A stretch of 64,000 nucleotides of DNA from Nitrospirota bacterium (GTDB lineage: Bacteria > Nitrospirota > Thermodesulfovibrionia > Thermodesulfovibrionales > SM23-35), in NCBI GenBank assembly GCA_040757475.1, contig JBFLWW010000001.1, positions 55,769-119,768 of the forward strand, written 5' to 3'. Under the pieces are notes generated by a model. The model was not told the DNA's origin and did no database searches. It was given only the letters and a program-made list of their open reading frames with translations. Shown here piece by piece: positions 37,493 through 52,577 of this stretch (position 1 is the first letter of the stretch; each line of letters starts with the position of its first letter). The position numbers and the translations under genes were made by a program.

Positions 37493-39559
37493 TTACACCA
37501 GCAAAGGAACAATCAAAAGCGCCACAATATTAACGACCTTGATCATGGGGTTCATTGCCGGTCCTGCGGTATCTTTATACGGGTCACCGACAGTGTCACC
37601 TGTAACAGCAGCCTTGTGCGCATCAGACTTCTTTCCACCATACATGCCTTCCTCTATAAACTTCTTTGCATTATCCCATGCACCGCCTCCGCTCGTCATC
37701 GCGATTGCTAAGAAGAGGCCTGTAAGAATGACCCCGATCAGCATAGCTCCAAGGGCCTCTTTCCCAAGGATGAAACCCACAAGAACCGGCGAAGCTACTG
37801 GAAGTAGAGACGGGATAATCATCTCTTTAATGGCACCTTTTGTAACAATGTCAACACACTGTCCATATTGTGGTTTGGCTTTGCCTTCCATAATGCCTGC
37901 TATTTCACGGAACTGGCGTCTTACCTCTTCTACAACACCTCCGGCTGCCTTACCCACTGCTAACATAAGCCTTGAACCATAATAGAATGGTAGCAAAGCA
38001 CCTATAAACAACCCAGATAGAACAAGCGGGTTTGCAAGCTTAAAGTGAAGCTCAATGCCATGTGCCAGAAATTCACGTGAGTACTCAGCAAATAGAACCA
38101 ATGCACAGAGCCCTGCTGAAGTAATTGCATATCCCTTTGTTACTGCCTTTGTTGTATTTCCGACTGCATCAAGCGGATCAAGAACAGTCCCACGGACCTT
38201 CTCATCCATCTGTGACATCTCGGCAATACCAGCAGCATTGTCTGTAACCGGTCCATAGGAGTCAATAGCGACCACGATACCTGTCATAGAGAGCATAGCA
38301 GCAGCAGCAAGACCTATAGCATAGAGACCAATATCTTCTTTACCTGCGAATCCACCACCTAAGGCATAGGATGCAAGGATGGCACCCACGACAACGAGGG
38401 CAGGTGGCATAGTTGACCTCATGCTGACTGATAAGCCAGCAATAATATTAGTGGCAGGACCTGTTGTGCTCGCCTTCGCAATCAGCTTTACAGGGCCAAA
38501 GCCCTTGGAAGTAAAGAACTCGGTGATCGCCATCATAAGCCCTGTAGCCAATAGGCCAACACCGGCTGTTAAAAGCACTGTCCATGGCGTGAATGCCAAG
38601 GCCTCTTTTGAGTCTGGTAAAAATTTTCCGATAAACCAGATCGAGACAAAATAGAATGCTATTGCAGCTAATATACCTGCGGCGGCTAACCCTTTGTAGA
38701 GTGCACCCATGATATACTGCTTTGCACCCAACCTTACGAAGAATGTCCCAACGATAGAGGCTATAATAGAGATCCCACCTAAAAGCAACGGGAAGAATGC
38801 CCAGGTGCTCTCTGCACCAAAGACAGTCTTACCAAGTAGCATTGCAGCCACTATTGTTACTATATAGGTCTCATAGAGGTCTGCAGCCATACCAGCACAA
38901 TCTCCTACATTGTCTCCAACCTGGTCAGCGATAACTGCAGGGTTTCTCGGGTCATCCTCGGGTATGCCTGCCTCAACCTTACCCACGAGGTCAGCACCAA
39001 CATCAGCAGCCTTTGTATAGATACCACCTGCAATACGGGCAAAGACACTCATGAGTGAGCAACCAAATCCAAGACCGACAAGGGCATAAAATGCCTTTTC
39101 TGGCACAATAGCCTTGGCTATAGAATAGTAAACTGCAATGCTCAGAAGAGCCAAACCCACTACCAGGAGACCTGCTACAGAACCACCCCGGAAGGCCAAT
39201 CTAAGGGCGTTTCTTAAACTGGTATAGGCAGCCTGTGAAGTCCTCAGGTTTCCCCTAACAGTAATCATCATTCCGACATAGCCTGCTGTTGCAGAGCCAG
39301 TAGCCCCGAGCAAGAACCCAAAGGCTGCAATCCAGTGCAGAAAGATCCCTATCAGCACAAATATGAAAATCCCGACCAATGCAACTGTCCTGTACTCACG
39401 GCTGAGAAAGGCCTGGGCACCTTCGCGTATAGCAGCAGCAATCTCCTGCATCCGAGCAGTTCCTTTCTCCTGCTTAACCACCCAAGCCGCAGTCAGTATC
39501 CCGTAAAGGACACCTGCAGCTCCACAAATAGCAGCAAATATAATGATACCTTGTTCCAT
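37493..39559 (-). CDS. hppA: membrane-bound ion-translocating pyrophosphatase, K+-independent (H+-PPase) signature
   Basis: 688 aa and about 16 TM helices. Motifs GDNVGDCAG and [24 protein letters not shown] carries the Lys/Thr pair diagnostic of K+-independent enzymes. Confidence 0.95.
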
Positions 39560-39577
39560 TCTTCACCTCCATTTTTT

Positions 39578-39649
39578 AGTTATGAGTGATGAGTTACGAG
39601 TGAGAAGTTAAAAACTATGGACCTTTAAACTTCTCGTTTAACTCGTTAC
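39578..39649. repeat. two-arm heptamer element (TTATGAG TGATGAG TTACGAG TGAGAAG TTAAAA / TTTAAACTTCTCGTTTAACTCGTTAC)
   Basis: Read directly in the qmoC-hppA spacer. Confidence 0.8.
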
Positions 39650-39700
39650 CGCCTTCTTTTGCTACCTGTTACTAAATCTTCCACCTCCCCTCATTTTTTA

Positions 39701-40888
39701 TCATCCCCTTTCAACCTCCCTCTCTGCATGCTTTGCAAAAACCATTGCTACAGCTCTATAAATCATATGTGCCATCTTTGAAAACGGGGCATATGCAAAC
39801 AGGAAAAAAACGAACACCAGGTGAACAAAGTAAACAGGATAAGCCAGTATAGCAATATCTGCAAGTCTTGTTAACTCTGTAAGTATCCCTGTAACTGCGA
39901 TAACAAAGACAACAGTTATGAAGATCCAGTCAAAATAACTCCCACGACCTGCTTTTTCCTTATTATTCACTCTATCTTTAATGACCAGATAGCCACCAAT
40001 TAAAAGTGCTATAGCACCTGCATTTCCAAGCCATTTAACCGGATCAGTCAATGGATATGGTGATTCGCCGAAATGGAAGATCGATGTTGCCTTAATACCA
40101 AAAAATTCATAACCATATAGGTAAACAACTGCCCATAGGGCAGTGATTGCAAGGGCTATGAATCCATAAAACACAAGCATATGAGAAATATACCTGGCTT
40201 TGGTGACATCACATTTCTGAAATCTCTTATGTGTTAATATTTCAGCTATCGTTGCAGTAATAGTTGGTATAAGTGATCCCTTCAACAGCATCTTCTGTCG
40301 AGCCTCCCCAGCACCAGCTACCATATCTTTCCAGTATCTGAAAATTCCTGCAACGAGTACTAACGCAGCAAATGCAGATATACCGCCATAAATAATCTCA
40401 AGGTATATAGCTGGTATAAATTTTGCGTAAGAGATACCGCCATCCTCTCCCCTTGGTATGGCAGAAAGGCTGAGGTGACCAAGCGATGAAAGGAGTAGAA
40501 GAAGGACCACGACAGGAACAGCAAACAGAAGGACAAGATAAGAAGGGCTACCAACTGCCTTTCCAAGAAATTGTGGTATAGAATAATGCTGTATTGACAG
40601 CTTTCTTACCGCATTAAGCACTTCACCTGGTTTCGCACCCCTCGGACAATACACTGTGCAATCACTACACTGATGGCATAGCCATATATCAGGATTGCTG
40701 AACAGCTTGTCCTTCAAACCCCATTGTGCATGTATCATCTCTTTTCTCGGAAATGGCTTATTGTCAGGTGTTACATTACAGACCACCGAACATGTGGCAC
40801 ACTGGAAGCATTTTTTTAACGACTCGCCCCCTGACTTTATAACATCCCTTACAAAACCTAAATCAGGACTTATAACCTCCTCTGCCAT
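39701..40888 (-). CDS. qmoC: quinone-interacting membrane-bound oxidoreductase subunit C (HdrC-like FeS domain + HdrE/NarI-like membrane cytochrome b domain)
   Basis: The N-terminus has CFQCATCSVVC and CHQCSDCTVYCP, followed by about 6 TM helices. It sits directly after qmoAB. Confidence 0.85.
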   Translation of the reverse strand: MAEEVISPDLGFVRDVIKSGGESLKKCFQCATCSVVCNVTPDNKPFPRKEMIHAQWGLKDKLFSNPDIWLCHQCSDCTVYCPRGAKPGEVLNAVRKLSIQHYSIPQFLGKAVGSPSYLVLLFAVPVVVLLLLLSSLGHLSLSAIPRGEDGGISYAKFIPAIYLEIIYGGISAFAALVLVAGIFRYWKDMVAGAGEARQKMLLKGSLIPTITATIAEILTHKRFQKCDVTKARYISHMLVFYGFIALAITALWAVVYLYGYEFFGIKATSIFHFGESPYPLTDPVKWLGNAGAIALLIGGYLVIKDRVNNKEKAGRGSYFDWIFITVVFVIAVTGILTELTRLADIAILAYPVYFVHLVFVFFLFAYAPFSKMAHMIYRAVAMVFAKHAEREVERG

Positions 40889-40904
40889 TATTTACCTCCA
40901 TAAT

Positions 40905-40966
40905 ATTGAGTCAATGAGTCAAGTTATTGGGTCAATGAATTTGGTTAAGTTACTTATTCACTTATT
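40905..40966. repeat. single-arm ~8-nt periodic array in the qmoB-qmoC spacer
   Basis: ATTGAGTCA ATGAGTCA AGTTATTGG GTCAATGA ATTTGGTT AAGTTACT TATTCACT. Confidence 0.65.
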
Positions 40967-40975: not shown

Positions 40976-43177
40976 CTATCCCTTATACGGATTAGGGCCG
41001 AATTCCTCCAATTTTTTCATGAAGTTATTTAATATATCTGGTATTTTGTAATACTCAGAGATAGATATCTGTTCCATCTGAACCCTTCCGGACTCAAGCC
41101 TTAATCTGTCCAGTGTTTCTGCAACCTTTGACAATCTTATCTTAGCCAGGTGGCTTCCTGTGGCCATATGACACTGATAATCCTCACCGTATTGACATCC
41201 CAGAATAAGTATCCCATCAACTCCTTTTGAGAGTGCATCTGCTATCCATACAAGGTTCATTGAGCCCGCGCATCTTAAGGGGATTACCCTTACAAAGGAA
41301 TTATATTGTAGGCGATTTATTCCTGCCATGTCCAGTGCTGGATATGCATCATTTTCGCAGGCAAAAACAATAGCCCTCGGCTTCTCATCCTCTTCAGGAG
41401 GAACCTCTATGTTCTTGACCATTGTTCCTATCATGTCAACAGAGTAATTCTTAAAGCTGATAATCCTTTCAGGACATGCACCAAGACAGATTGCGCATCT
41501 TCTGCAGCGAGTCGGATTATAAAGAGGATTGGCCTTTTCATCTTCATTGATAGCTCCGAAGGGACACTCTTCTGTACATCTCTTACACTGGGTACATTTT
41601 TGCATAAAGAAATCTGCATAGGATATATCTCCAGCCCTTGGATGTACTGCCTCACCCCTACCTGTCATTTCAATACACTGGATTGCCTTAAGGGCTGCCC
41701 CTGTGGCATCCTCTATGGTAGAAGGTATATCCATAGGTGCTCTTACAGAACCAGCAGCATAAATGCCGGTTCTCCGGGTTTCATAGGGGAAACAGATGAA
41801 GTTGGAGTCAGGATATCCATTGATTAAAACAGGCACCTCACCACCCTGCCTGTACCCAAGGTTTAAAATATCTGTTTCAATCATAACATATGGAATGAAC
41901 TCATCCCCTGGTTTTACCCCTGGTGGAAGCTCCTCTTCACCTAATGCAGTTACTGGAACTATCCCTGTTGCTAGAACAGCAAGGTCAACATTCACCTTTA
42001 TCTTTTCACCTATCAGGGTATTTTCTATATCTATATTGAGGTTCTTGTTTTCATCCTCTGTGATGCCTTTAACATCTCCTTTCGTCAAGAAAATCCCTGC
42101 ATCATTCTGGATGCCCTTGTAAAAATATTCATAATGACCGGGTGTTCTCATGTCCCTATAGAATATATATACCTTTGAATCAGGATACTGGTCCCTTATA
42201 TATTTTGCCTGTTTGAGAGACTCTATACAGCAGGTCGCTGAACAGTAAGGTAAATAATTCTCATCCCTCTGACCTGCGCACAGAACAAAGGCCACGCTTT
42301 TAACTGGTTTACTATCAGAGGGTCTTACAATCGCTCCCTTTGAGGCAAGCTCTTCCATCATGTAGTTTGTTACCACATTCGGATATTTGCCAAACCCAAG
42401 GTGCTCTATCTTTGTAGCATCATAAGGTATGGTACCAGCAGCCATAACTACTGCCCCAGCCCTAAAGCTCTCAACCTTTCCATCTTGTCTTACTACGACA
42501 TCATATACGCCAGGTCCACCTTCTATCTTCTCTATCATTGAAGAGGTATAAATCTTAACCTTTTGGTTCTGTTGAATCTCTTTAATTAAGTCTTTGATGA
42601 GTGGTTCTTCAAGGTCAGTATAGGGAGGTTCTGTAGGTGCCTGTTTATAAAGTTTTGCCATCCATCCGCCAAGAGAATCATTCTTTTCTACAAGGAAGAC
42701 ATCATATCCTGCCTTTGCTGCTTCATTAGCAGCAGTAATCCCAGCAAGACCACCTCCAACAATTAGTACATTTTTAGAGAGATTCTCTACCTTATAAGGT
42801 TCTGGTGCCTCCATCTTCTGCATCTTGAGGATACCCATCCTTACATAGTCTTCAGCCATCATCTGGGTGTCCTCGTTATTCGGTGGGTGGGTCCAGACAA
42901 CCCCTTCCCTGAGGTTAACCCTTTCCACAAGAGGAATGCCTAAATTGAAGACATCATAATTTACACGAGGCGAGCAGGCAGCAATAACAACTGCGTTAAC
43001 TCCTTCAGTAGCCATATCATTTTTAATGAAATCCATACCTTCCTTCTGACACAAGGCTGGATGGGTTTTGACAACGGGGGCCTTTGTTTTAGTTGCAACC
43101 TTTACTAAACTATCTATATTAAGGGATTTTCCTATCTCACAATCACTACAAATATAAACTCCTATTTTTTTCTCCAT
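40976..43177 (-). CDS. qmoB: quinone-interacting membrane-bound oxidoreductase subunit B (HdrA-like flavoprotein with FeS and MvhD-like C-terminus)
   Basis: FAD fold VLIVGGGLAGITAA, clusters CTQCKRCTEECP and CRRCAICLGACP, and a C-terminal Cys-rich domain. Confidence 0.88.
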   Translation of the reverse strand: MEKKIGVYICSDCEIGKSLNIDSLVKVATKTKAPVVKTHPALCQKEGMDFIKNDMATEGVNAVVIAACSPRVNYDVFNLGIPLVERVNLREGVVWTHPPNNEDTQMMAEDYVRMGILKMQKMEAPEPYKVENLSKNVLIVGGGLAGITAANEAAKAGYDVFLVEKNDSLGGWMAKLYKQAPTEPPYTDLEEPLIKDLIKEIQQNQKVKIYTSSMIEKIEGGPGVYDVVVRQDGKVESFRAGAVVMAAGTIPYDATKIEHLGFGKYPNVVTNYMMEELASKGAIVRPSDSKPVKSVAFVLCAGQRDENYLPYCSATCCIESLKQAKYIRDQYPDSKVYIFYRDMRTPGHYEYFYKGIQNDAGIFLTKGDVKGITEDENKNLNIDIENTLIGEKIKVNVDLAVLATGIVPVTALGEEELPPGVKPGDEFIPYVMIETDILNLGYRQGGEVPVLINGYPDSNFICFPYETRRTGIYAAGSVRAPMDIPSTIEDATGAALKAIQCIEMTGRGEAVHPRAGDISYADFFMQKCTQCKRCTEECPFGAINEDEKANPLYNPTRCRRCAICLGACPERIISFKNYSVDMIGTMVKNIEVPPEEDEKPRAIVFACENDAYPALDMAGINRLQYNSFVRVIPLRCAGSMNLVWIADALSKGVDGILILGCQYGEDYQCHMATGSHLAKIRLSKVAETLDRLRLESGRVQMEQISISEYYKIPDILNNFMKKLEEFGPNPYKG

Positions 43178-43180: not shown

Positions 43181-44446
43181 TTACCTCCTCACCAAAGATT
43201 GAATGGCTTTTAGTGCTGCAGCTGTACCTTCGCGTGCACTGGAATAGACATCAACTGGCTTTGTAACACAGCCAACGGCATACATCCCGGCTGTACCAGT
43301 ATTTGATAGAACAAAGCCATCTGTATCATAAGATATGCTTGTGGGTATCTTCCATTCCTTTGTGACAGGGGCCATACCTGTGGCAAGAACAGCGAGTTCT
43401 ACTTTCTCCTGAATCTTCTTACCTGCCTCTACATCCTCTGCCACCACAGTAAGGTCCTTTGTGTTAGGGTCTTCCTCAATCTTTGCAACCTTACCTTTAA
43501 TAAACTTTATATTTTCATCGCTCTGGACCTCTTTATAAAACTTTTCATATCTCGTTCCAGGCGAACGAATGTCAATATAAAATATAAATATCTGTGCCTG
43601 AGGATATTGCTCCCGCACATAGGTTGCCTGTTTCATAGATGCCAGGCAACAGATATAGGAACAGTATGAGAGATGATTTTCATCCCTTGAGCCAGCACAC
43701 TGGACAAATGCTACTCTTGAAACCTCTTTACCATCAGAGGGACGAAGTATTTTCCCTTTAGTAGGACCATTAAAAGATGCCATCCTTTCCATCATCATGT
43801 TAGTAATGACATTCTGATACTTCCCGAATCCAAGATTATCAATCTTTGCGGCGTCGTATGGATTCCAACCAGTAGCCCAGACTATAGAACCTGCTTTTAA
43901 GGGGATGCTTTGGGACTTCATATTAAGGTCAATAGCGTTATATGTGCAAGCCTCTACACATTTGGCACATTTTTCTTTAGTGCAATACTTCTCATCAATC
44001 ACGTATCTCAATGGGAAGGCAAATTCATGTGGAAGATAAATAGCCTTTGTCTTATCCATACCAAAATTGAATTCATTAGGCCTTTCAACAGGGCATGCCT
44101 CAACACAGGCATTGCAGGCAGTACACTTCTCATTAACATAGCTGGGATTAAGCTTTACTGTTACATCAAAGTCTCCCTCTGAACCAGAGATTTTTTCCAC
44201 TTCTGCTAGGGTGTAAAATTTGACCCTCGGGTTGTTTTTGATTCTCCTGAAATTTATCTCCAGACCGCAGTTTGGTGGACATAACTTTGGGAAATATTTA
44301 TTAAGCTGGGCCACACGACCACCGAGGTATGAATTCTTCTCAATAAGAGTAACCTCATACCCAACCTCGGCTGTTTCTACAGCGGTGGTTATCCCACTTA
44401 TTCCTCCACCTACAACCAATACATTTTTCGATTTCTCTACTGCCAT
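43181..44446 (-). CDS. qmoA: quinone-interacting membrane-bound oxidoreductase subunit A (HdrA-like flavoprotein)
   Basis: Motifs VLVVGGGISGITTA, CTACNACVEACP and CAKCVEAC. Only 3 nt separate it from qmoB. Confidence 0.88.
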   Translation of the reverse strand: MAVEKSKNVLVVGGGISGITTAVETAEVGYEVTLIEKNSYLGGRVAQLNKYFPKLCPPNCGLEINFRRIKNNPRVKFYTLAEVEKISGSEGDFDVTVKLNPSYVNEKCTACNACVEACPVERPNEFNFGMDKTKAIYLPHEFAFPLRYVIDEKYCTKEKCAKCVEACTYNAIDLNMKSQSIPLKAGSIVWATGWNPYDAAKIDNLGFGKYQNVITNMMMERMASFNGPTKGKILRPSDGKEVSRVAFVQCAGSRDENHLSYCSYICCLASMKQATYVREQYPQAQIFIFYIDIRSPGTRYEKFYKEVQSDENIKFIKGKVAKIEEDPNTKDLTVVAEDVEAGKKIQEKVELAVLATGMAPVTKEWKIPTSISYDTDGFVLSNTGTAGMYAVGCVTKPVDVYSSAREGTAAALKAIQSLVRR

Positions 44447-44616: not shown

Positions 44617-45153
44617 TTAATCACATTCCGATTTAATTGCGTCAAATGCCAGAAAGATTCTCTTTTCCTTCTCAATCCTTCCTTCTGGTAGCTTTTTAAA
44701 TTCAATTTTCTTAAGGGTTTCTAATGCCTTGGGCTTTTGGGGTATTGCCTCTAAACCTGAGCTGATTACCTCACCAGAGATGGTATTCATAACTTCTGCA
44801 TCCTCTCCATTGGTTATAACAGCAAATGGTATTTGATAAATATCAAGAATCCTTGCACAAGCCAGAACCTCCCTTTCCCTCATGACCAATGAACTACGGG
44901 CACAGCTTATAAGCATGAATCTCTTTCCTTCAACACTTACAATAAGGTCAACCTTTGATCTATTTATTTCATTGTCCACAGCAATCTCGAATTTCGTATC
45001 AACCTCAATATCCTCTTTTGAATAACCTTTCTCTTCAACGAGAAAATGTTCTATTTTCTGCCTGATTCTTTCATCATCTGTATCAATGAATGCTTGCCCC
45101 GTTATAAAATCAGTGAGTGTATCCTCTCCCTTAATTTTACACTTCTCTACCAT
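44617..45153 (-). CDS. HsdR_N-like (type I restriction enzyme R-protein N-terminal domain fold) stand-alone protein
   Basis: 178 aa with pattern ..IRQKIEHFLVEEKGYSKEDIEV......V.......VDLIVSVEGKRFMLISCA.....MREREVLACARIL..IYQIPFAVITNG.. I recalled this family from memory and did not search for it. Confidence 0.5.
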   Translation of the reverse strand: MVEKCKIKGEDTLTDFITGQAFIDTDDERIRQKIEHFLVEEKGYSKEDIEVDTKFEIAVDNEINRSKVDLIVSVEGKRFMLISCARSSLVMREREVLACARILDIYQIPFAVITNGEDAEVMNTISGEVISSGLEAIPQKPKALETLKKIEFKKLPEGRIEKEKRIFLAFDAIKSECD

Positions 45154-46743: not shown

Positions 46744-46768
46744 TGGGGGCGACCTGAAAGGTCGCCCC
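46744..46768 (-). terminator. GC-rich hairpin (attenuator/processing candidate) between aprA and the downstream genes
   Basis: GGGGGCGACC-TGAAA-GGTCGCCCCC, a perfect 10-bp stem. On the minus strand it is followed by AAAATTTT, which is a poor T-tract. Confidence 0.45.
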
Positions 46769-46799
46769 CACATAGATACCTCTCAAGATACTGGCTCAA

Positions 46800-48725
46800 C
46801 TAAATGATAGGGATCATTGGCCTTGTTAATACCGTCCATTCCTTCTTATCCACATCATACTTCACATTTATAAAGTGCCTCTGACCCTCATCCAGTTTCA
46901 GGTAATCGTGCTTAAAGTAATATCCAGGCCATCTTGACTCCTTCCTCGCCAGCCTTGTCCTTGCACATGCCTCGGCAACCCAGTATCTGTGTATCGCCTC
47001 CCATGCCCTCATCAGCTCATGATTGTTCTTCTCAACATTAGTAGCAATCTTCTCTATATCCTCTCCGCAGAACCCTAACTTCCAGATGCCGGTCTCGAGC
47101 ATCTTGTCAGATGTCCCATACAATGTCTCCCATCCACCACAATATTCTCCCATTATCTTCTGTAGCCTGAATAGGAAATTGTGCGGGGAGATATAGTTAG
47201 GATTCACATCCGGGCTTGTTGTATATCCCTTCTTCTCCTCATAGAGGGCAACGGGTCTAAATACTATTTCCTTGAGTTTACTTATTGTGGCATCAGATAC
47301 TGTTGGCTTATAGTCCTTCTGGTCATTGGCGAACCTGACCACTGCCTTTGCTGCAATCCTTCCCTGTACATGTGAGCCGCTTGAGAACTTATGGGCACAT
47401 GCCCCTACACCACAACCTGCTGTGAATAGACCCATGACAGTGGTCATGCAGTTATACTGGGCAGGGAATGCATCCGCATATTCTTTTGGCATAAGGTCTT
47501 CAGCACCACAGGTCCAACAACCACAAGAGCAGGCATGTGAACCTATGAAGACAGAATCTGACAACTGAAGCTCCATAGGTTTTTCCATTGGGTCAATATT
47601 ATGGGCAGCCCAGTTTGTGGCACCTGCGATTGTCATGTCGAGGAAGTCCTCCCAGGCCTCGCTCTCATATTCTTTTATCTTCTTCTTCAGCTCCTTTGGA
47701 TCTGTTATCTCCTTCTGAAACCTTTCTACCACCCTCTCTGTGTGCATGAGGAATGGTGTTTTGCCTTCCTGTGCGCAGAGTATCATCTCATAGTTTCTAA
47801 TAGGAGTCGGACAGGGCTTCGCATGTGCATATGGTGCCCACTTGTCTGTCTGGGATGGATATCCACCAACGTAATCCCCGTCATAAGCATTTTTTGCAGG
47901 TGTCTTAAAGAGAAGGAAGAATGTTCCAACAGGACCGTAGGAATCTTTGAACCTCGGAGGGACGAAGGTACTGTCCATCTGTGTCAACTCACCACCTGCT
48001 AGAAGAGTAAGGGCATAAGTCGAACCTCCTAACCATGGTGGCATCCATGACCTTCCAAAGCCTTCAGCCTGAGACCTTGGCCTGAATACATGGACTGCAC
48101 CACCCATTATAGAAAGGACTACCTTTGCCTTAAAGACATAGAATTTGTCTTCCCTGACGCTAAAACCTACTGCACCGCATACCCTGTTAGGCTCTTTCTC
48201 ATCCTTCAAAAGGTGCGTGATATAGACCCTCTCGATTAACTGGCCCTTATCTCCAAGGGTACCTATAGCGTTCTTTGCTGCCTCTGCCACGATAATCTTG
48301 TAGCTCTCGCCTGATATCATCACCTGCCATTCACCTGATTTTCTCAGATTTCCTGCCTCATCCGTCCATATAGGAAGTCCCCATTTCTGAAAGAGTCTGA
48401 CGGTTCCATCCACATGTCTTGCAATATCATAGACGAGGTCCTGCCTTGCAAGGCCACACTGGTCATTCGTCACATATTCAACAAACCTTTCCGGCATGCG
48501 GGGATTCTCGGTCACCTTTCCATCCATTCCCATATATGTATTAATAGCAGAAAGTCCCATCGCAACAGGGCCACTTCTGTCAACAGCAGCCTTATCCACC
48601 CATGTTACTTTTAAACCCAGTGGCTTTGCCCAGTATGCAGCCTCTACTGCAGCACCACAGCCTGCCATTCCTCCACCGAGTATCAATATATCAGTATCAA
48701 TAACCTCTGTTGTAAATTCTTTCAT
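46800..48725 (-). CDS. aprA: adenylylsulfate (APS) reductase, alpha subunit
   Basis: 641 aa with the FAD fold DILILGGGMAGCGAA. Its length and sequence are characteristic of AprA, and it pairs with aprB. Confidence 0.95.
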   Translation of the reverse strand: MKEFTTEVIDTDILILGGGMAGCGAAVEAAYWAKPLGLKVTWVDKAAVDRSGPVAMGLSAINTYMGMDGKVTENPRMPERFVEYVTNDQCGLARQDLVYDIARHVDGTVRLFQKWGLPIWTDEAGNLRKSGEWQVMISGESYKIIVAEAAKNAIGTLGDKGQLIERVYITHLLKDEKEPNRVCGAVGFSVREDKFYVFKAKVVLSIMGGAVHVFRPRSQAEGFGRSWMPPWLGGSTYALTLLAGGELTQMDSTFVPPRFKDSYGPVGTFFLLFKTPAKNAYDGDYVGGYPSQTDKWAPYAHAKPCPTPIRNYEMILCAQEGKTPFLMHTERVVERFQKEITDPKELKKKIKEYESEAWEDFLDMTIAGATNWAAHNIDPMEKPMELQLSDSVFIGSHACSCGCWTCGAEDLMPKEYADAFPAQYNCMTTVMGLFTAGCGVGACAHKFSSGSHVQGRIAAKAVVRFANDQKDYKPTVSDATISKLKEIVFRPVALYEEKKGYTTSPDVNPNYISPHNFLFRLQKIMGEYCGGWETLYGTSDKMLETGIWKLGFCGEDIEKIATNVEKNNHELMRAWEAIHRYWVAEACARTRLARKESRWPGYYFKHDYLKLDEGQRHFINVKYDVDKKEWTVLTRPMIPII

Positions 48726-48737: not shown

Positions 48738-49184
48738 TTATTTTTTCTTTGTCGGGAGTTCCTTCACTCCCATTATATCAGGCTCCCCAAGGAGCAACTG
48801 AGTGGTTAAATCCGCTGCCTTTGCTTCGGGATATCCCTCGAGCGCCTTTATAGAGCCTTCTGCAGTAGTCCTCGTTGCATACTTAAATCTCTTGATCCTT
48901 CCATCCCTGAATGTGATAGTCCACATGATATCCTCTGTTCCTCTCAAAGGAGTTGATGCAGCACCGAGGGGCATAAAGTCTTGATAACCCCTGACATCCA
49001 TAGCCTGCTGTGGACATATCTTTACACAACAGTAGCACTCCCAGCAATAACTAGGCTCCTGATTGTATGCCTTCATCCTCTCCTTATCCAGAAACATCAG
49101 GTCGTTAGGGCATATGTACATACAGGCAGTTTTATCCTGCCCCTTACAGCCGTCGCACTTTTCTGTCATTACAAAACTTGGCAT
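48738..49184 (-). CDS. aprB: adenylylsulfate reductase, beta subunit (2x[4Fe-4S])
   Basis: MPSFV..EKCDGCKG......CMYICPNDLM and CWECYCCVKICP, with the typical C-terminal tail. Confidence 0.93.
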   Translation of the reverse strand: MPSFVMTEKCDGCKGQDKTACMYICPNDLMFLDKERMKAYNQEPSYCWECYCCVKICPQQAMDVRGYQDFMPLGAASTPLRGTEDIMWTITFRDGRIKRFKYATRTTAEGSIKALEGYPEAKAADLTTQLLLGEPDIMGVKELPTKKK

Positions 49185-49203: not shown

Positions 49204-49240
49204 AAAATTTTAAATTTTAAATTTTAAATTTTAAATTTTT
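49204..49240. repeat. (TAAATTT)x5 perfect-to-near-perfect tandem heptamer upstream of aprB
   Basis: AAAATTT TAAATTT TAAATTT TAAATTT TAAATTT, read directly. Confidence 0.9.
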
Positions 49241-49287
49241 AAGACCCCCACCTCCTTTCTTCTCAGGATTTCGCTTCTTTTTAGTCC

Positions 49288-49674
49288 TTATGCAGCCTTT
49301 TTTTGTAATCCAAGTGCTTCACTAATATCAATGTCAGGTACCGGTAATGCCTCTGACTCCTTTGCAGCGAGTTCCTTTATCTTAGGAAGATCTGCAAGGA
49401 CTGCATCAATTACCTCTTTACCGATAGACTTCATAGTCTTTATCTTTTCAAAGAGGGCCCTCTTGAAGGCAATAGGTGCTTCCTCTATGAAGAATCGGGC
49501 ATCTAACCTCGCACCCGGAAGCCCCTCAATTATCTTATTGGTCTGTTCGTCTGGCACCTCCATAATCAATGCCTTTATCGCTCCTCCGAACATATCCGTT
49601 ACCTTACCCTCAAGGGGCGAACCTTTGATATCAGAAAGCCTCTTTGCATCTAATAGCACAGCCAGGTAATTCAT
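49288..49674 (-). CDS. hypothetical acidic protein (128 aa, Cys-free) between sat and aprB
   Basis: The ATG lies 14 nt after the sat stop and follows AAGGGGGTGGAGA. The gene is co-oriented and I recognise no motif. A 112-aa antisense ORF also exists. Confidence 0.5.
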   Translation of the reverse strand: MNYLAVLLDAKRLSDIKGSPLEGKVTDMFGGAIKALIMEVPDEQTNKIIEGLPGARLDARFFIEEAPIAFKRALFEKIKTMKSIGKEVIDAVLADLPKIKELAAKESEALPVPDIDISEALGLQKKAA

Positions 49675-49688: not shown

Positions 49689-51065
49689 TTATTTAAATTT
49701 AGGAATATCCATTGGAGCCAGATCTATCTCAAGCTCCTTTTCTCTCTCTGTCAGGTACCTCTTGTTATTGAATGGGTAGCCGAATTCCTTCCACCATTTG
49801 ACCACAACCTGATATACCTCTCGCCTCATGATAACCGGTGGTGGGAAAACACCCTCTGCGAGCAAGCTCCTGATAAAGCTACCACTATACCTCTGTAATT
49901 CGTCCTTATGGGTACAGTTTTCGCTGTATGTAACCTCTCCGCAGTGTGGACAGTACCAGAACTCAGCCATGTTCTGTGGCCTCATATACAGTCCCTGAGG
50001 CACAGCATAAGGAGGTGCATCCAGACCAAAGCTTGGAATTCCCTTCTCCCAGAGGATCTGTGCTGCATACATATCATAATATGGTCCCAATGCTGCATGG
50101 TCTCTTCCAAACATGTGATATGAGATACCCATATTCTGCCGGATGATTCCATGTAAGAGTGACTCAATTGGGTTTCCATATCTCATATCCCATAGAGTAA
50201 GGGTTACCAGGTGTCTATTTGGACTGACATAACCTGCAAGGTTTACCATCTCATGAGCTTCAACTATTGCTTCATCCGGATAATCCCCTATCCTCTTAGC
50301 CCCGACTATGCAATTGACAACTATACCATCACATGGTTTTACGTCTCCGATAAAAGCAGCATTTCTCAGTAGGGCCTCATGCCCGGTATGGGGGACGTTT
50401 CTCGTCTGGTGGGCTATTACTGTTGTCCAGCCTCTCTTTTTGAATTCCTCCCTTGACTTGGCAGGTGGATACCAGAACCTATCAAAAGGTTTCCTTAGCT
50501 TGGGCTCATTGATTATCCTGTACTTTCCAGCTAAGATTATTGGGTTGAACGCACTGTATATGGTAAAACCTGGATGCTTAAAATCAAAGGGGACTTTTAC
50601 AACCTCTGGATTATGCTCAGGAGTTCCAAAGGTTCTGGTAGCTACCTCTCCTGGGCTAATCTCATAGACTTCCTCAATATCAAGAATTGCAAAAGGCTGT
50701 CCTTTAAGCCTCAAAAGGAGCGTGTCTCCTGAAGTTACACCAAGCTTTTTGTGATCCTCCTCGCTGATATCAAAAAGCATCGGGTAAGGGAAGACCCACC
50801 CGCTCAGCAGTCTTCTCTTCTCCAATAAACTCTCAAGTTCTGCTGAGGTCATCGAGCCTTCTACAGGGCTGAAGAAGCCGTAACATATAGACATGATCTC
50901 CCTGTAAACATTTCTTACAGGCATGTCCTTGTATAGGGTTGGTTTGATATCATAAACAGCGTCAGCCTTAGCAGCTATCTTTTTCCCGACCTCTGGGTCT
51001 GTGACAATCCTGTTAACCAGAGCTCCACCATGGGGCGGTGGAAGTGTTGTCATTTTTAGCTCCAT
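49689..51065 (-). CDS. sat: sulfate adenylyltransferase (ATP sulfurylase), dissimilatory type
   Basis: Motifs HQTRNVPHTGHEAL and C-terminal zinc-ribbon-like CPHCGEVTYSENCTH. Confidence 0.93.
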   Translation of the reverse strand: MELKMTTLPPPHGGALVNRIVTDPEVGKKIAAKADAVYDIKPTLYKDMPVRNVYREIMSICYGFFSPVEGSMTSAELESLLEKRRLLSGWVFPYPMLFDISEEDHKKLGVTSGDTLLLRLKGQPFAILDIEEVYEISPGEVATRTFGTPEHNPEVVKVPFDFKHPGFTIYSAFNPIILAGKYRIINEPKLRKPFDRFWYPPAKSREEFKKRGWTTVIAHQTRNVPHTGHEALLRNAAFIGDVKPCDGIVVNCIVGAKRIGDYPDEAIVEAHEMVNLAGYVSPNRHLVTLTLWDMRYGNPIESLLHGIIRQNMGISYHMFGRDHAALGPYYDMYAAQILWEKGIPSFGLDAPPYAVPQGLYMRPQNMAEFWYCPHCGEVTYSENCTHKDELQRYSGSFIRSLLAEGVFPPPVIMRREVYQVVVKWWKEFGYPFNNKRYLTEREKELEIDLAPMDIPKFK

Positions 51066-51093: not shown

Positions 51094-51738
51094 CTAACTT
51101 TCAAGAACTGCACAAACATTTTTGAATATTTCATCAATACTGCCTACACCCTCTACTGATTTCAATATCCTCCTTTCCTTGTAGTAATTTATAAGTGGTG
51201 CTGTCTGGGCATCGTAGACATCAAGCCTCCTTTTTATCGTCTCTTCTTTATCGTCATCCCTTTGAAATAGCTCACCACCACATTTATCGCATGTCCCTTC
51301 TTTCTTTGGCGGCGAAAAATATACGTTATACATCTGCTGGCAGTTCCTGCATGTCCTCCTTCCTGTTAGTCTCTTCATGAGGACATCTTTATCCACATCA
51401 ATGAGTAGGGCGGTATCAAGGGGAGCTCCCATTTCAGAGAGCACCCTGTCCAATGCTTCTGACTGAGCTGTATTCCTCGGAAAGCCATCAAGTATATAGC
51501 CCTTCTTACAGTCATCCTGAGCAATCCTTTCCTTAACAAGCCCGATTACAACGCTATCAGGCACAAGCTCACCTTTATCCATATAGGACTTTGCCTCTTT
51601 CCCGAGTGGCGTTCCCGCTGCGACTGCTGCTCTTAAAATATCCCCTGTAGAAATCTGTGGAATCCCGTATCTTTCGATCAGTTTTTTCGCCTGAGTTCCT
51701 TTACCCCCTCCTGGTGCTCCGAGAAGAACAAGTCTCAT
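51094..51738 (-). CDS. adk: adenylate kinase (zinc-lid type)
   Basis: MRLVLLGAPGGGKGTQ directly follows GGGGGAGGA-ATG at 51738. The lid is CRNC...CDKCGG. The track start 51795 lies in a 5'-UTR hairpin. Confidence 0.93.
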   Translation of the reverse strand: MRLVLLGAPGGGKGTQAKKLIERYGIPQISTGDILRAAVAAGTPLGKEAKSYMDKGELVPDSVVIGLVKERIAQDDCKKGYILDGFPRNTAQSEALDRVLSEMGAPLDTALLIDVDKDVLMKRLTGRRTCRNCQQMYNVYFSPPKKEGTCDKCGGELFQRDDDKEETIKRRLDVYDAQTAPLINYYKERRILKSVEGVGSIDEIFKNVCAVLES

Positions 51739-51855
51739 ATCCTCCCCCTCTAAAAGACATTCTCGTTTTAAAAATTTAAGATATATAGAAAGCACCTAAG
51801 GTAAAGATTAGGTGCTAAATGGCTAATGAGAATAACCTTGCGTAAAAAACAAAAC

Positions 51856-51885
51856 AGTATAATCACTATGTTATCTCAAGGTCAA
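51856..51885 (-). promoter_or_regulatory. candidate sigma70-type promoter for adk-sat
   Basis: The minus strand reads TTGACC-18 nt-TATACT about 110 nt upstream of the adk ATG. The hairpin GCACCTAA/TTAGGTGC (51792-51815) would lie in the 5' UTR. Confidence 0.4.
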
Positions 51886-51921
51886 ATTCATATTTCTGAT
51901 AAATAAATAAAATTTACTTAT

Positions 51922-51953
51922 TAGACTCCAATTAGACTCTAAAAATAGACTCC
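51922..51953. promoter_or_regulatory. three direct repeats TAGACTC(C/T) spaced 11 and 13 bp, upstream of the adk-sat promoter
   Basis: TAGACTCC 51922-51929, TAGACTCT 51933-51940 and TAGACTCC 51946-51953. Confidence 0.35.
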
Positions 51954-51977
51954 AAAAATTACAATTTATAAATAAAA

Positions 51978-52577
51978 TTATTTAAAAATTTTTGCTTCTC
52001 TGAGATATTCCCTAAGTTCCCTTAATGCCTTACCTCTATGACTAAAGGCATCTTTTTCCTCACCAGTCATCTCGGCAAATGTCCTGCTTTTTCCTTCTGG
52101 ATAAAATACTGGGTCATAGCCGAATCCATTAAAGCCCCTCGGCTCTCTACCTATCCTACCTTCCACATGTCCAAAAAATGTTTTTACGCTACTGTCTGGA
52201 AATGCTAATGCTATACAGCATACAAACCGAGCGCCTCTTTCCTCATCCACAATTGAGCGCATTTCATATAGCAGTCTTTCGATGTTGCCCCTGTCGCCCG
52301 CACCCTCACCAGCATACCTCGAAGATAATGTGCCAGGGGCCCTATTCATCGCATATACCTCAAGACCTGAATCATCAGCAAGTGCAGGTTTTCCTGTATA
52401 TTTTGCGACAGCCATCGCCTTCTTCACAGCATTCGCCTCAAATGTAGCCCCATCTTCCTCCACCTCAGGACACCCTGGAAAGTCATCGAGCGTCAGTACC
52501 GAGATTGATATATCCCCGATGATTCTCTCTATTTCTTCGATTTTCTTCTTATTTTTCGTTGCAAGAACAATTTCCAT
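51978..52577 (-). CDS. rdgB: RdgB/HAM1-family non-canonical purine NTP pyrophosphatase
   Basis: Motifs IVLATKNKKK..E, EEDGATFE.NA.KKA and FGYDP.F. Confidence 0.9.
   Translation of the reverse strand: MEIVLATKNKKKIEEIERIIGDISISVLTLDDFPGCPEVEEDGATFEANAVKKAMAVAKYTGKPALADDSGLEVYAMNRAPGTLSSRYAGEGAGDRGNIERLLYEMRSIVDEERGARFVCCIALAFPDSSVKTFFGHVEGRIGREPRGFNGFGYDPVFYPEGKSRTFAEMTGEEKDAFSHRGKALRELREYLREAKIFK

What the first reader, a model, noticed from the sequence alone, without database searches (positions are those of the whole stretch)
37493..52577. 15-kb co-oriented block containing the complete sulfate-to-sulfite module plus both by-product enzymes
Reading the minus strand from 52577 down to 37493, the order is rdgB | adk, 28 nt, sat, 14 nt, orf128 | aprB-aprA | CxxCxxCC x2, HsdR_N-like | qmoA-B-C | hppA.
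- Sat forms APS and PPi.
- The membrane PPase removes the PPi while conserving energy.
- AprAB convert APS to sulfite and AMP.
- Adk recycles the AMP.
- Qmo connects AprAB to the quinone pool.
Linkage of sat-aprBA-qmoABC is established knowledge for sulfate reducers and for green sulfur bacteria. Having adk translationally adjacent to sat, and hppA directly after qmoC in the same orientation, makes an unusually complete stoichiometric module. The window has no dsrAB, dsrC or dsrMK, so I cannot tell whether the pathway runs in the reductive or the oxidative direction.
Basis: partly seen in the sequence, partly recalled or inferred. Interest (0 to 1): 0.55.

Follow-up and report, generated by a model that had tools for sequence, protein, structure and literature searches.

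The report
Extended sulfate activation gene cluster
An uncultured Nitrospirota bacterium keeps the genes for turning sulfate into sulfite in one block with the two enzymes that clear the by-products (AMP and pyrophosphate), and its relatives keep this layout even where individual genes were swapped for foreign versions.

Summary
On the minus strand, 52577 down to 37493 reads rdgB | adk-sat-DUF6955 | aprBA | two CxxCxxCC genes, HSDR_N-like | qmoABC | hppA, with the stated 28-nt and 14-nt spacers.

The window matches an NCBI Nitrospirota MAG (locus tag AB1348_). Its closest named relatives are Thermodesulfovibrionales and Dissulfurispiraceae MAGs.

- adk-sat and qmoC-hppA recur in all nine relatives read in full, whatever lies outside the block.
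- Neither adjacency occurs in 36-37 testable apr loci from other phyla.

Inside the fixed frame, sat occurs in three unrelated types and aprBA in two. Five of the six combinations were seen, which points to cassette replacement in place.

HppA carries the K+-independent, H+-pump signature. rdgB is a neighbour, not a member: it has its own terminator-like hairpin, and a conserved promoter follows it. Several transcription units are likely.

Direction (sulfate reduction or sulfite oxidation in disproportionation) cannot be read from this window. It holds no dsr genes.

This is an extended variant of the known sat-aprBA-qmoABC cluster, implicit in published locus tags but not found discussed. Interest is moderate. 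The more novel side findings are a ~260-aa CxxCxxCC protein linked to aprBA across phyla, and DUF6955, a confident model with no solved structural relative.

The parts
51978..52577 (-). rdgB (Ham1-family XTP/dITP diphosphatase). An upstream neighbour that is probably a separate transcription unit and not part of the module.
   Evidence: PF01725 at 227 bits and NF011397 at 246 bits. It is followed by a terminator-like hairpin at 51791-51816 and a promoter-like site. It lies next to adk in L086, L121, L158 and L162-L164, but is absent in L165-L167.
51879..51899 (-). Conserved promoter element TCAGAAATATGAATTTGACCT upstream of adk. It includes the -35 hexamer TTGACC; the matching -10 TATACT ends at 51856.
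   Evidence: The promoter scan scores it 10 of 12. The element is almost invariant in the window, L162, L086 and L158, although their sat genes belong to different types. Function is inferred, not shown.
51094..51738 (-). adk, adenylate kinase (214 aa) with a Cys4 metal-binding lid. It converts AMP + ATP to 2 ADP, and the reverse.
   Evidence: NF001380 at 333 bits, PF00406 and PF05191. The start is at ATG 51738 behind a GGGGGAGG site. The sequence is identical to MEW6674507. Cys at ORF positions 149, 152, 169 and 172.
49689..51065 (-). sat, sulfate adenylyltransferase (458 aa) of the Archaeoglobus/Caldimicrobium type.
   Evidence: NF003166 at 455 bits and TIGR00339 at 406 bits. It is 63-65% identical to the Archaeoglobaceae Sat in L007 and L029. 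It is only 26-39% identical to the Sat found in the same slot in most relatives.
49288..49674 (-). DUF6955 protein (128 aa, no Cys), function unknown. Homologs 47-52% identical lie between sat and aprB in two Archaeoglobaceae MAGs, the position of the uncharacterised 'ORF2' of the A. fulgidus Sat-ORF2-AprAB operon.
   Evidence: PF22271 at 91 bits. Homologs sit between sat and aprB in L007 and L029, and in Caldimicrobium thiodismutans. The operon name comes from PMC3949148; identity with A. fulgidus ORF2 itself was not tested. The AlphaFold model has pLDDT 88 and no PDB fold match, the best being E = 3.
49205..49239 (-). Five exact copies of AAATTTT in the 103-nt spacer upstream of aprB. This is an AT-rich, promoter-like region.
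   Evidence: Tandem Repeats Finder score 70 with 100% matches. Promoter-like hexamers lie at 49207-49242. Its role is inferred.
48738..49184 (-). aprB, the APS reductase iron-sulfur subunit (148 aa).
   Evidence: TIGR02060 at 204 bits; PF12139 matched over its full length.
46800..48725 (-). aprA, the APS reductase flavoprotein subunit (641 aa).
   Evidence: TIGR02061 at 769 bits. The best solved relative is A. fulgidus AprA at 704 bits. It is 78-90% identical to AprA of Nitrospirota, Dissulfurispiraceae and Syntrophobacteraceae MAGs.
46745..46769 (-). GC-rich hairpin GGGGGCGACC-TTTCA-GGTCGCCCCC directly after aprA, followed by AAAATTTT. A possible attenuator or partial terminator.
   Evidence: RNAfold of the 75-nt spacer gives -28 kcal/mol. 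Function is inferred.
45951..46724 (-). CxxCxxCC (YkgJ-type) cysteine-cluster protein 1 (257 aa).
   Evidence: PF03692 at 39.8 bits. It travels with aprBA: 60-81% identical copies sit directly after aprA in L002-L006 and L082-L088.
45165..45947 (-). CxxCxxCC (YkgJ-type) cysteine-cluster protein 2 (260 aa). It is a paralog of protein 1, with 8 conserved Cys.
   Evidence: PF03692 at 41.6 bits. It is 48% identical to protein 1. Full-length homologs 35-55% identical lie next to aprBA in many phyla.
44617..45153 (-). HSDR_N_2-like protein (178 aa). A D...ExK motif is visible by eye, but the function is unknown.
   Evidence: PF13588 at 69.6 bits. It sits in the same slot at 58-76% identity in L083-L088, L139 and L162-L164. 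No defence-system model matched beyond weak domain-level hits.
43181..44446 (-). qmoA (HdrA-like flavoprotein).
   Evidence: Pfam FAD and Fe-S domains, HdrA-family hits below their cut-offs, and its position before qmoB and qmoC.
40976..43177 (-). qmoB (HdrA-like, with a C-terminal MvhD/FlpD domain).
   Evidence: PF02662 at 135 bits plus FAD and Fe-S domains. The spacer after qmoA is 3 nt.
39701..40888 (-). qmoC, the membrane subunit linking Qmo to the quinone pool.
   Evidence: NF038018 at 476 bits against a cut-off of 300. Hydrophobic segments begin at residue 110.
37493..39559 (-). hppA, a membrane pyrophosphatase with the K+-independent signature. It is predicted to pump H+.
   Evidence: PF03030 at 853 bits. 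The best solved relative is 8b37, the K+-insensitive H+ pump, at 518 bits, against 444 bits for the Thermotoga Na+ pump. The motif reads [10 protein letters not shown] with K and T where the K+-dependent enzyme has A and G.
37438..37474 (-). Intrinsic terminator after hppA (GGCCGATCC-loop-GGATCGGCC, then TTTTTATTT). It marks the 3' boundary of the block.
   Evidence: RNAfold of the spacer gives -37 kcal/mol. The same hairpin is picked up on the + strand by the terminator scan at 37455-37472.

Best explanation
The block is an extended form of the dissimilatory sat-aprBA-qmoABC cluster.

Proposed mechanism, reductive direction:
- Sat makes APS and PPi from sulfate and ATP.
- AprAB reduces APS to sulfite and AMP, using electrons passed from the quinone pool by QmoABC.
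- Adk, encoded immediately upstream of sat, returns AMP to the adenylate pool.
- HppA, a K+-independent membrane pyrophosphatase encoded immediately after qmoC, removes PPi. This pulls the unfavourable Sat reaction forward and recovers part of the energy as a proton gradient.

All four reactions are reversible. The same gene set could therefore oxidise sulfite to sulfate during sulfur disproportionation, with Adk supplying AMP and HppA making PPi.

Selection keeps the genes together in this lineage. The frame adk-[sat]-[aprBA]-qmoABC-hppA persists while sat and aprBA are replaced by foreign versions.

What is shown: gene identities, order and spacers; conservation of the frame; the mosaic origin of its parts; the K+-independent signature.

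What is inferred: co-regulation, the transcription units, H+ pumping, and the direction of flux.
For: Gene identities rest on curated models above their cut-offs.

Frame conservation:
- L162 (Nitrospirota GCA_040753955.1) has the same order as the window, including DUF6955.
- L163/L164 (Dissulfurispiraceae GCA_052144475.1) have rdgB-adk-sat-aprBA-CxxC-CxxC-HSDR_N-qmoABC-hppA between unrelated flanks: rpsO-pnp on one side and a transposase on the other.
- L165, L166 and L167 were reached through Adk alone (80-86% identical). Each has different upstream genes, and all read adk-sat-aprBA-qmoABC-(CBS)-hppA.
- Metagenome loci L082, L086, L087, L095, L121, L132, L133, L149, L153, L155 and L158 show one or both adjacencies.
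- Controls from other phyla give 0 of 36 for qmoC-hppA and 0 of 37 for adk-sat.

Mosaicism, measured as identity to the window:
- Adk 71-90%, QmoC 41-69%, HppA 44-71%.
- Sat falls into three types: 97%, 38-39% and 26-27%.
- AprA falls into two types: 75-89% and 45-48%.
- Five of the six type combinations occur.
- L095 carries two sat types in one block. L006 carries two aprBA types in tandem. These look like intermediates of replacement.

Other support:
- The promoter element upstream of adk is conserved across loci with different sat types.
- A strong terminator follows hppA.
- HppA has K and T in the [10 protein letters not shown] motif and its best solved match is the K+-insensitive proton pump 8b37.
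- adk and hppA also lie near aprBA-qmoABC-sat in Acidobacteriota (adk divergent in L019 and L046; hppA convergent in L046). This hints at independent recruitment.
Against: - There are no expression data.
- Spacers of 103, 75, 170 and 141 nt, a hairpin after aprA, and promoter-like sites suggest several transcription units. adk and hppA could therefore be regulated separately.
- The qmoC-hppA spacer is not conserved.
- All clearly positive loci belong to one lineage (Adk at least 71% identical), so part of the conservation could be shared descent.
- adk is normally a housekeeping gene. I could not check whether the genome has a second copy or a soluble PPase.
- Cultured Thermodesulfovibrio is reported with sat, aprAB and qmoABC but a distantly encoded soluble PPase (PMC5165239). 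hppA linkage is therefore not required for the pathway.
Confidence: 0.72

Rival explanations
1. Historical accident. adk and hppA are ordinary housekeeping genes that came to lie beside the sulfate cluster in one ancestor. They stay there only because the lineage is young and rearrangements are rare. There is no functional coupling.
For: - Every fully positive locus carries an Adk at least 71% identical to the window's, so all belong to one lineage.
- rdgB, which has no obvious link to sulfur, is also conserved next to adk in six loci.
- Separate promoters are likely.
- The adjacencies are absent from other phyla.
Against: - Genes outside the block differ between loci, while the block is kept.
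- Genes inside the block (sat, aprBA, qmoAB) have been replaced, some more than once, without breaking the frame. This is hard to reconcile with mere lack of rearrangement.
- QmoC and HppA have diverged to 41-45% identity in L166 and L167 and are still adjacent, so the link is old.
- adk and hppA also lie close to apr in some Acidobacteriota.
Confidence: 0.18
2. The block mainly runs in reverse, as a sulfite-to-sulfate, ATP-yielding branch of sulfur disproportionation.
- AprAB oxidises sulfite with AMP.
- Sat makes ATP from APS and PPi.
- Adk supplies AMP from 2 ADP.
- The K+-independent H+-PPase works as a PPi synthase driven by the proton gradient.
For: - The closest named relatives include Dissulfurispiraceae. 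The cultured member of that family grows by sulfur disproportionation (PMC12998232).
- The same 458-aa Sat plus DUF6955 pair occurs in Caldimicrobium thiodismutans, which from my own knowledge is a disproportionator.
- From my own knowledge, K+-independent H+-PPases include the reversible Rhodospirillum rubrum PPi synthase.
- A need for both AMP and PPi would explain why both adk and hppA are linked.
Against: - The same genes serve sulfate reduction. Related rice-paddy Nitrospirae express them under sulfate-amended conditions and carry dsrD (PMC5812927).
- The window has no marker of disproportionation such as the YTD cluster.
- The energetics of PPi synthesis in these cells are unknown.
Confidence: 0.25
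3. The cluster belongs to a sulfur oxidiser and works like the sat-aprBA-qmoABC cluster of green sulfur bacteria, running oxidatively with reverse-type Dsr or Sox.
For: From established knowledge, Qmo-linked AprBA of the sulfate-reducer type also serves oxidation in Chlorobi. The gene set alone therefore does not exclude this reading.
Against: - All close homologs come from anaerobic Nitrospirota/Thermodesulfovibrionales and Syntrophobacteraceae-like MAGs.
- Related genomes are reported to carry reductive-type dsrAB with dsrD and no oxidative sulfur genes except sqr (PMC5812927).
- The window holds no sox or dsrEFH genes.
Confidence: 0.04

Closest known systems
The sat-aprBA-qmoABC cluster of sulfate reducers (Thermodesulfovibrio, Archaeoglobus, Thermodesulfobacteria, many Desulfobacterota)
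   Same: The core genes, their order and their orientation are the same. QmoC is a full membrane subunit. The Sat-DUF6955-AprBA arrangement also occurs in two Archaeoglobaceae MAGs and in Caldimicrobium, and matches the layout of the A. fulgidus Sat-ORF2-AprAB operon.
   Different: Here adk precedes sat and hppA follows qmoC. Two CxxCxxCC genes and an HSDR_N-like gene are inserted between aprA and qmoA. Thermodesulfovibrio is reported to use a distantly encoded soluble Mn-dependent PPase (PMC5165239). Caldimicrobium has neither adk nor hppA next to the cluster.
Candidatus Sulfobium and related rice-paddy and groundwater Nitrospirae bins (PMC5812927)
   Same: The lineage is the same or closely related. 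Consecutive locus tags in Table 2 of that paper place hppA next to qmoC-qmoB-qmoA-aprA-aprB-sat in several bins.
   Different: The paper lists the genes but does not discuss the linkage. It does not mention adk, the accessory genes, or the different origins of sat and aprBA.
K+-independent H+-translocating membrane pyrophosphatases (for example Pyrobaculum aerophilum, PDB 8b37)
   Same: The match runs the full length of the protein at 518 bits. The Lys/Thr signature in GNTTKAxTKG is present.
   Different: Ion specificity and reversibility are untested here. The deposited record calls the protein 'sodium-translocating pyrophosphatase', but NCBIfam gives that name to every one of its models for this family.
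aprBA-(CxxCxxCC)-qmoABC-sat loci of Acidobacteriota and other newly recognised sulfur-cycling phyla (PMC6018796)
   Same: A CxxCxxCC protein of about 260 aa lies between aprA and qmoA. In some of these loci, adk and hppA lie within a few kb (L019, L046).
   Different: sat lies after qmoC. adk is divergent and hppA convergent, not co-oriented. There is no DUF6955 and no HSDR_N-like gene.

Membership tests
Dissimilatory sat-aprBA-qmoABC cluster | ATP sulfurylase of the homo-oligomeric Sat type | tested here: met
   NF003166 at 455 bits (cut-off 387) and TIGR00339 at 406 bits (cut-off 323).
Dissimilatory sat-aprBA-qmoABC cluster | AprB and AprA equivalogs, adjacent in the order B then A | tested here: met
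   TIGR02060 at 204 bits (cut-off 136) and TIGR02061 at 769 bits (cut-off 642). The spacer is 12 nt.
Dissimilatory sat-aprBA-qmoABC cluster | QmoA, QmoB (with MvhD/FlpD domain) and membrane QmoC downstream of aprA | tested here: met
   QmoC matches NF038018 at 476 bits (cut-off 300). QmoB carries PF02662 at 135 bits. QmoA and QmoB are HdrA-like. No dedicated QmoA or QmoB model reached its cut-off, so these two rest on domains and position.
Dissimilatory sat-aprBA-qmoABC cluster | DsrAB, DsrC and DsrMK elsewhere in the genome, and their reductive or oxidative type | not testable with these tools
   No dsr gene lies in the 64-kb window. The rest of the AB1348_ MAG could not be read.
K+-independent H+-pyrophosphatase | Full-length H_PPase fold | tested here: met
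   PF03030 at 853 bits, covering profile positions 2-645 of 645.
K+-independent H+-pyrophosphatase | Lys in place of Ala and Thr in place of Gly in the GNTTAAxGKG motif | tested here: met
   The query reads [10 protein letters not shown]. The K+-insensitive 8b37 reads GNTTKATTKG. The K+-dependent 4av3 reads GNTTAAIGKG.
K+-independent H+-pyrophosphatase | H+ rather than Na+ transport, and reversibility | not testable with these tools
   Inferred from the signature only. The annotation name is uninformative.
Adenylate kinase | Equivalog-level match with a lid domain | tested here: met
   NF001380 at 333 bits (cut-off 251). PF05191 lid domain with four Cys.
Adenylate kinase | Being a dedicated paralog rather than the only, housekeeping adk of the genome | not testable with these tools
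   Whole genomes could not be searched. The Adk tree follows the lineage rather than the cassette types, which fits vertical inheritance of a single copy.
DUF6955 | Pfam PF22271 match and a position between sat and aprB | tested here: met
   91 bits against a cut-off of 27. The same position is seen in L007, L029, L162 and L169. A. fulgidus has a Sat-ORF2-AprAB operon (PMC3949148), but homology to that ORF2 itself was not tested.
CxxCxxCC / YkgJ family (PF03692) | Pfam domain above its cut-off | tested here: met
   39.8 and 41.6 bits against a cut-off of 23. Eight Cys are conserved between the two paralogs.
Anti-phage defence or restriction system (considered because of the HSDR_N_2 domain) | A match to a defence protein model together with partner genes such as a methyltransferase or specificity subunit | tested here: not met
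   Only weak N-terminal domain-level hits were found: PADLOC MTase_II at 24 bits and NCBIfam MAD2 at 32 bits against a cut-off of 720. No partner genes lie nearby.

The most novel reading that the evidence does not exclude
The conserved frame is a selected 'supra-operon' in which foreign sat and aprBA cassettes are repeatedly swapped in place. Three uncharacterised proteins that travel with these cassettes are real, undescribed components of the sulfate activation and APS reduction machinery:
- the pair of ~260-aa YkgJ-type cysteine-cluster proteins linked to aprBA;
- the small PD-(D/E)xK-like HSDR_N protein;
- DUF6955, linked to the 458-aa Sat.

The cysteine-cluster proteins could, for example, act as maturation factors or redox partners between AprAB and QmoAB. 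In addition, the K+-independent H+-PPase may let the whole unit run backwards as an ATP-yielding sulfite oxidation branch in disproportionation.
Probability: 0.3. Interest if true: 0.62.

Novelty: new variant of a known kind. Interest (0 to 1): 0.4.

Why it matters
The energy budget of sulfate reduction turns on what happens to the PPi and AMP produced when sulfate is activated. A lineage that keeps a proton-pumping pyrophosphatase and adenylate kinase physically tied to sat, apr and qmo, even while swapping the core enzymes, is comparative evidence that recovering this energy matters. These Nitrospirota live in energy-limited subsurface and sediment habitats. The arrangement also points to a good cultured system for experiments: Dissulfurispira and its relatives.

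Two side findings could matter more than the module itself:
- sat and aprBA behave as replaceable cassettes inside a fixed frame. This bears on the use of aprA and sat phylogenies as taxonomic markers.
- A CxxCxxCC protein family is linked to aprBA in many phyla, and DUF6955 is linked to one Sat type. Neither has been characterised. How AprAB is matured and how it receives electrons from Qmo is still only partly understood, so these are candidates worth testing.

Tried and rejected
- **Rfam scan of the whole window.** It found only tmRNA and three tRNAs, with nothing in the block. No known riboswitch or leader explains the long spacers.
- **PADLOC and NCBIfam scans of the HSDR_N-like and CxxCxxCC proteins.** They gave only weak domain-level hits. 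I rejected a defence-island reading of the insert between aprA and qmoA.
- **AlphaFold model of CxxCxxCC protein 2.** Only its paralog was available as alignment. The model reached pLDDT 43.6 and is unusable, so no fold search was run.
- **PDB sequence searches.** The CxxCxxCC pair and the HSDR_N-like protein found nothing meaningful.
- **Foldseek of the confident DUF6955 model against the PDB.** The best match was E = 3 with TM 0.26, so no function could be transferred.
- **The 13-nt direct repeat upstream of adk (core GGAGTCTA).** The core occurs nowhere else in the window and is at chance frequency. Only one copy is present in L162. I did not treat it as a regulon motif.
- **The qmoC-hppA spacer.** It shows no conserved element across four loci.
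- **Literature searches.** These found nothing on adenylate kinase together with aprBA, pyrophosphatase and gene cluster; on CxxCxxCC or YkgJ together with apr or qmo; or on DUF6955. The library is open-access only, so this is not proof of absence.
- **The genome-contig scan.** It therefore served as an out-group control rather than an in-group survey. The in-group came from metagenome contigs and exact-protein look-ups.
- **One script error.** A negative index produced a useless long alignment. The comparison was redone cleanly.

Full report
**What is in the sequence**

The minus strand from 52577 to 37493 carries 13 consecutive ORFs.
- rdgB (Ham1 family)
- adk
- sat
- a 128-aa DUF6955 protein
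- aprB and aprA
- two paralogous CxxCxxCC (PF03692) proteins
- a 178-aa HSDR_N_2-like protein
- qmoA, qmoB and qmoC
- hppA

AprA, AprB, Sat, Adk, QmoC and RdgB all exceed the curated NCBIfam cut-offs. The adk-sat spacer is 28 nt and the sat-DUF6955 spacer is 14 nt, as reported, and every gene has a GGAGG-type ribosome-binding site.

The only correction concerns adk. It starts at ATG 51738, not at the GTG of the mechanical ORF. This gives the 214-aa protein deposited as MEW6674507.

The rest of the window is housekeeping: glnA, smpB and tmRNA, ftsH, folP, tgt, hisAF, pyruvate:ferredoxin oxidoreductase, atpBE, penicillin-binding proteins, ribF, icd, mreBCD-rodA, yidC and mnmE. It contains no dsr, sox or sulfate-transporter gene.

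**Source**

The proteins are identical to those of an NCBI Nitrospirota MAG with locus tag AB1348_ and a 120.6-kb contig. Its accession numbers run consecutively from hppA (MEW6674496) to adk (MEW6674507). The nearest AprA and Adk homologs are labelled Nitrospirota, Thermodesulfovibrionales or Dissulfurispiraceae.

**Likely transcription units (inferred from sequence only)**

- A terminator-like hairpin and a promoter-like site (TTGACC, 18 nt, TATACT) lie between rdgB and adk.
- The 21 nt around the -35 hexamer (window 51879-51899) are almost invariant in the window, L162, L086 and L158, even though these loci carry different sat types. A different but equally conserved promoter region precedes adk in L166, L167 and L095. 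adk therefore looks like the first gene of a conserved unit, and rdgB looks like a neighbour.
- An AT-rich (AAATTTT)x5 tract precedes aprB.
- A GC-rich hairpin follows aprA.
- A 170-nt spacer precedes qmoA.
- A 141-nt spacer with a hairpin but no T-tract separates qmoC from hppA.
- A strong intrinsic terminator follows hppA.
- No Rfam family matches inside the block.

**Is the arrangement more than chance?**

1. *Out-group control.* An AprA-profile scan of one genome per species returned 80 loci, almost all from other phyla: Desulfobacterota, Acidobacteriota, Bacteroidota, Gemmatimonadota, Chloroflexota, Bacillota and Archaeoglobi. In none does hppA follow qmoC (0 of 36 testable), and in none does adk precede sat (0 of 37 testable).
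2. *Metagenome contigs.* A QmoA scan of metagenome contigs returned 80 loci. Nine of 40 testable loci have qmoC-hppA, and six carry adk directly before sat. L086 repeats the entire window order. L121 and L158 read rdgB-adk-sat-aprBA-qmoABC-hppA.
3. *Exact-protein look-ups.*
   - Nitrospirota GCA_040753955.1 (L162) has the same order and the same mre flank.
   - Dissulfurispiraceae GCA_052144475.1 (L163/L164) has the full order without DUF6955, between rpsO-pnp and a transposase.
   - Three loci reached only through Adk homologs (L165-L167) have three different upstream contexts. All read adk-sat-aprBA-qmoABC-hppA, two of them with a small CBS-pair gene before hppA.

The adjacencies are therefore conserved in this lineage while the surroundings change.

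Published data already contain part of this. Table 2 of the Candidatus Sulfobium paper gives consecutive locus tags for hppA, qmoCBA, aprAB and sat in several Nitrospirae bins, without comment (PMC5812927). Cultured Thermodesulfovibrio, by contrast, is reported with sat, aprAB and qmoABC together and a distantly encoded soluble PPase (PMC5165239).

**A fixed frame with exchangeable contents**

Identities to the window proteins are strongly discordant.

| Protein | Identity to the window across frame loci |
|---|---|
| Adk | 71-90% |
| QmoC | 41-69% |
| HppA | 44-71% |
| Sat | three unrelated types |
| AprA | two types |

The Sat types in the same slot are:
- Type A, Archaeoglobus-like, 458 aa and followed by DUF6955: the window and L162. 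It is 63-65% identical to Archaeoglobaceae Sat.
- Type B, 38-39% identical to the window and grouping with Desulfofundulus and other Bacillota: L086, L088, L132, L149, L153 and L158.
- Type C, 26-27% identical and Desulfobacterota-like: L095, L121 and L163-L167.

The AprA types are:
- Type 1, 75-89% identical, and also 78-82% identical to Syntrophobacteraceae-like MAGs L002-L006.
- Type 2, 45-48% identical.

Rough neighbour-joining trees agree with these groupings. Five of the six possible combinations occur: A1, B1, C1, B2 and C2. sat and aprBA were therefore replaced independently.

Two loci look like intermediates:
- L095 has a type C sat after adk and a type B sat after hppA.
- L006 has a type 1 aprBA-CxxC-CxxC cassette inserted ahead of a second, different aprBA-qmoABC.

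AprA is usually more conserved than Adk. An Adk at 86% identity beside an AprA at 45% (L165) cannot be vertical divergence. The trees come from tblastn fragments and are approximate, but the identity gaps are too large for that to matter.

**The pyrophosphatase**

HppA matches the K+-insensitive proton pump of Pyrobaculum (PDB 8b37, 518 bits) better than the Thermotoga Na+ pump (444 bits). Its motif reads [10 protein letters not shown], with Lys and Thr where K+-dependent enzymes have Ala and Gly.

From established knowledge of the family, all characterised K+-independent enzymes pump H+, and some work reversibly as PPi synthases. The deposited name, 'sodium-translocating pyrophosphatase', is the generic name NCBIfam gives to all its models of this family. 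It carries no information on ion specificity.

**The unknown genes inside the block**

*DUF6955*
- It occurs in only 41 protein clusters, almost all Nitrospirota, plus Caldimicrobium thiodismutans.
- Homologs also lie between sat and aprB in two Archaeoglobaceae MAGs. That is the position of 'ORF2' in the A. fulgidus Sat-ORF2-AprAB operon (PMC3949148). I did not test homology to the A. fulgidus ORF2 sequence itself.
- In every locus where I could see the neighbours it follows the 458-aa Sat type.
- Its AlphaFold model is confident (pLDDT 88) but has no solved structural relative.

*The two CxxCxxCC proteins*
- They are 48% identical, with eight conserved Cys.
- Full-length homologs of about 260 aa and 35-55% identity lie between aprA and qmoA in 29 of 68 out-group loci.
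- They lie divergently upstream of aprB in 19 of 35 Desulfobacterales-like metagenome loci.
- They lie after hppA in type 2 frames such as L132 and L158.
- I found no paper linking this family to APS reductase.
- Structure prediction failed for lack of an alignment.

*The HSDR_N-like protein*
- It is conserved in type 1 frames at 58-76% identity. Weaker homologs (36-49% identical) lie upstream of aprB in some Desulfobacterales-like loci.
- It does not look like part of a defence system.

**Mechanism and direction**

The best-supported reading is a functionally linked module. Sat and AprAB carry the sulfur chemistry, QmoABC supplies or accepts the electrons at the membrane, Adk balances AMP, and HppA balances PPi while exchanging its energy with the proton gradient.

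All four reactions are reversible, so the direction cannot be read from the window:
- Related Nitrospirae are reported to express these genes under sulfate-amended conditions and to carry dsrD (PMC5812927).
- The cultured member of Dissulfurispiraceae grows by sulfur disproportionation (PMC12998232).
- The same Sat-DUF6955-AprBA-Qmo set occurs in Caldimicrobium thiodismutans.
- A reverse mode, with HppA as PPi synthase and Adk as AMP supplier, would explain rather neatly why both genes are linked. It remains an inference.
- A classical sulfur-oxidiser reading is unlikely given the lineage.

**Verdict**

- Corrections: rdgB is not part of the module, several transcription units are likely, and the layout was found in every relative of this lineage that I examined.
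- It is an extended variant of a well-known cluster, present in deposited and partly published data but, as far as I could search, not described as such.
- I score interest as moderate (0.40).
- The more novel content lies in the cassette replacement inside a conserved frame and in the uncharacterised proteins that travel with aprBA and sat.

Noticed in passing
L002-L006, L014, L019, L028, L031, L036, L041-L048, L050, L052, L055, L061, L065, L071, L073, L076, L077, L080; L094-L161 (many): A CxxCxxCC (PF03692, YkgJ-type) protein of about 260 aa is linked to aprBA across phyla. It lies between aprA and qmoA in 29 of 68 genome loci, and divergently upstream of aprB in 19 of 35 Desulfobacterales-like metagenome loci. 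I found no literature on this link.
   Followed up: partly
L095 15322-18648; L006 9253-15908: L095 carries two different sat types in one block: one after adk and one after hppA. L006 carries two different aprBA pairs in tandem, the first with its two CxxCxxCC genes. These look like intermediate stages of cassette replacement.
   Followed up: partly
L166 19538-19978; L167 19366-19806: A 146-aa protein made of a CBS domain pair sits between qmoC and hppA in two Nitrospirota loci. CBS pairs usually bind adenine nucleotides, so this may be an adenylate-sensing regulator of the pyrophosphatase or of Qmo.
   Followed up: no
L019 11942-12274; L046 11945-12280: Acidobacteriota loci have a conserved ORF of about 110 aa between aprA and the CxxCxxCC gene. 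The two copies are 60% identical and carry CPHC...CFND(E/D)CP motifs. Only a weak Ogr/Delta zinc-finger hit was found.
   Followed up: partly
L019 8102-8734; L046 8106-8756 and 20865-21872: In two Acidobacteriota/Holophagae MAGs, adk lies divergently about 800 nt upstream of aprB. In L046, hppA lies convergently about 1.7 kb after sat. This may be independent recruitment of the same two helper genes.
   Followed up: partly
window 51922-51959: Three direct repeats of 13 nt (core GGAGTCTA) lie just upstream of the conserved adk promoter element. L162 has one copy. The core occurs nowhere else in the window.
   Followed up: yes
window 49205-49239: Five exact copies of AAATTTT lie in the spacer upstream of aprB. 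This may be a curved-DNA or UP-like element for a strong aprBA promoter.
   Followed up: no
window 37493-39559: The deposited annotation calls HppA 'sodium-translocating pyrophosphatase', but the sequence has the K+-independent (H+-pump) Lys/Thr signature. NCBIfam uses the sodium name for all its membrane-PPase models.
   Followed up: yes
window 37010-37381 and 36176-36901: Two co-oriented genes lie downstream of the hppA terminator: a CGGC-domain protein (123 aa, 7 Cys) and a 241-aa protein with one N-terminal hydrophobic segment and no family match. Distant CGGC homologs lie near apr in L044, L048 and L063, but not in close relatives.
   Followed up: partly
L162 12825-15393: In the closest named MAG, two extra genes are inserted between the two CxxCxxCC genes: a 173-aa ORF on the opposite strand and a 520-aa protein with a weak VWA_2 domain hit.
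   Followed up: no
window 27734-28820: Only the ATP synthase a and c subunit genes are present here, next to pyruvate:ferredoxin oxidoreductase genes. The atp operon therefore appears to be split in this genome.
   Followed up: no
window 1436-2216: smpB is immediately followed by the tmRNA gene (tag peptide ANSELALAA). This is an ordinary arrangement.
   Followed up: no
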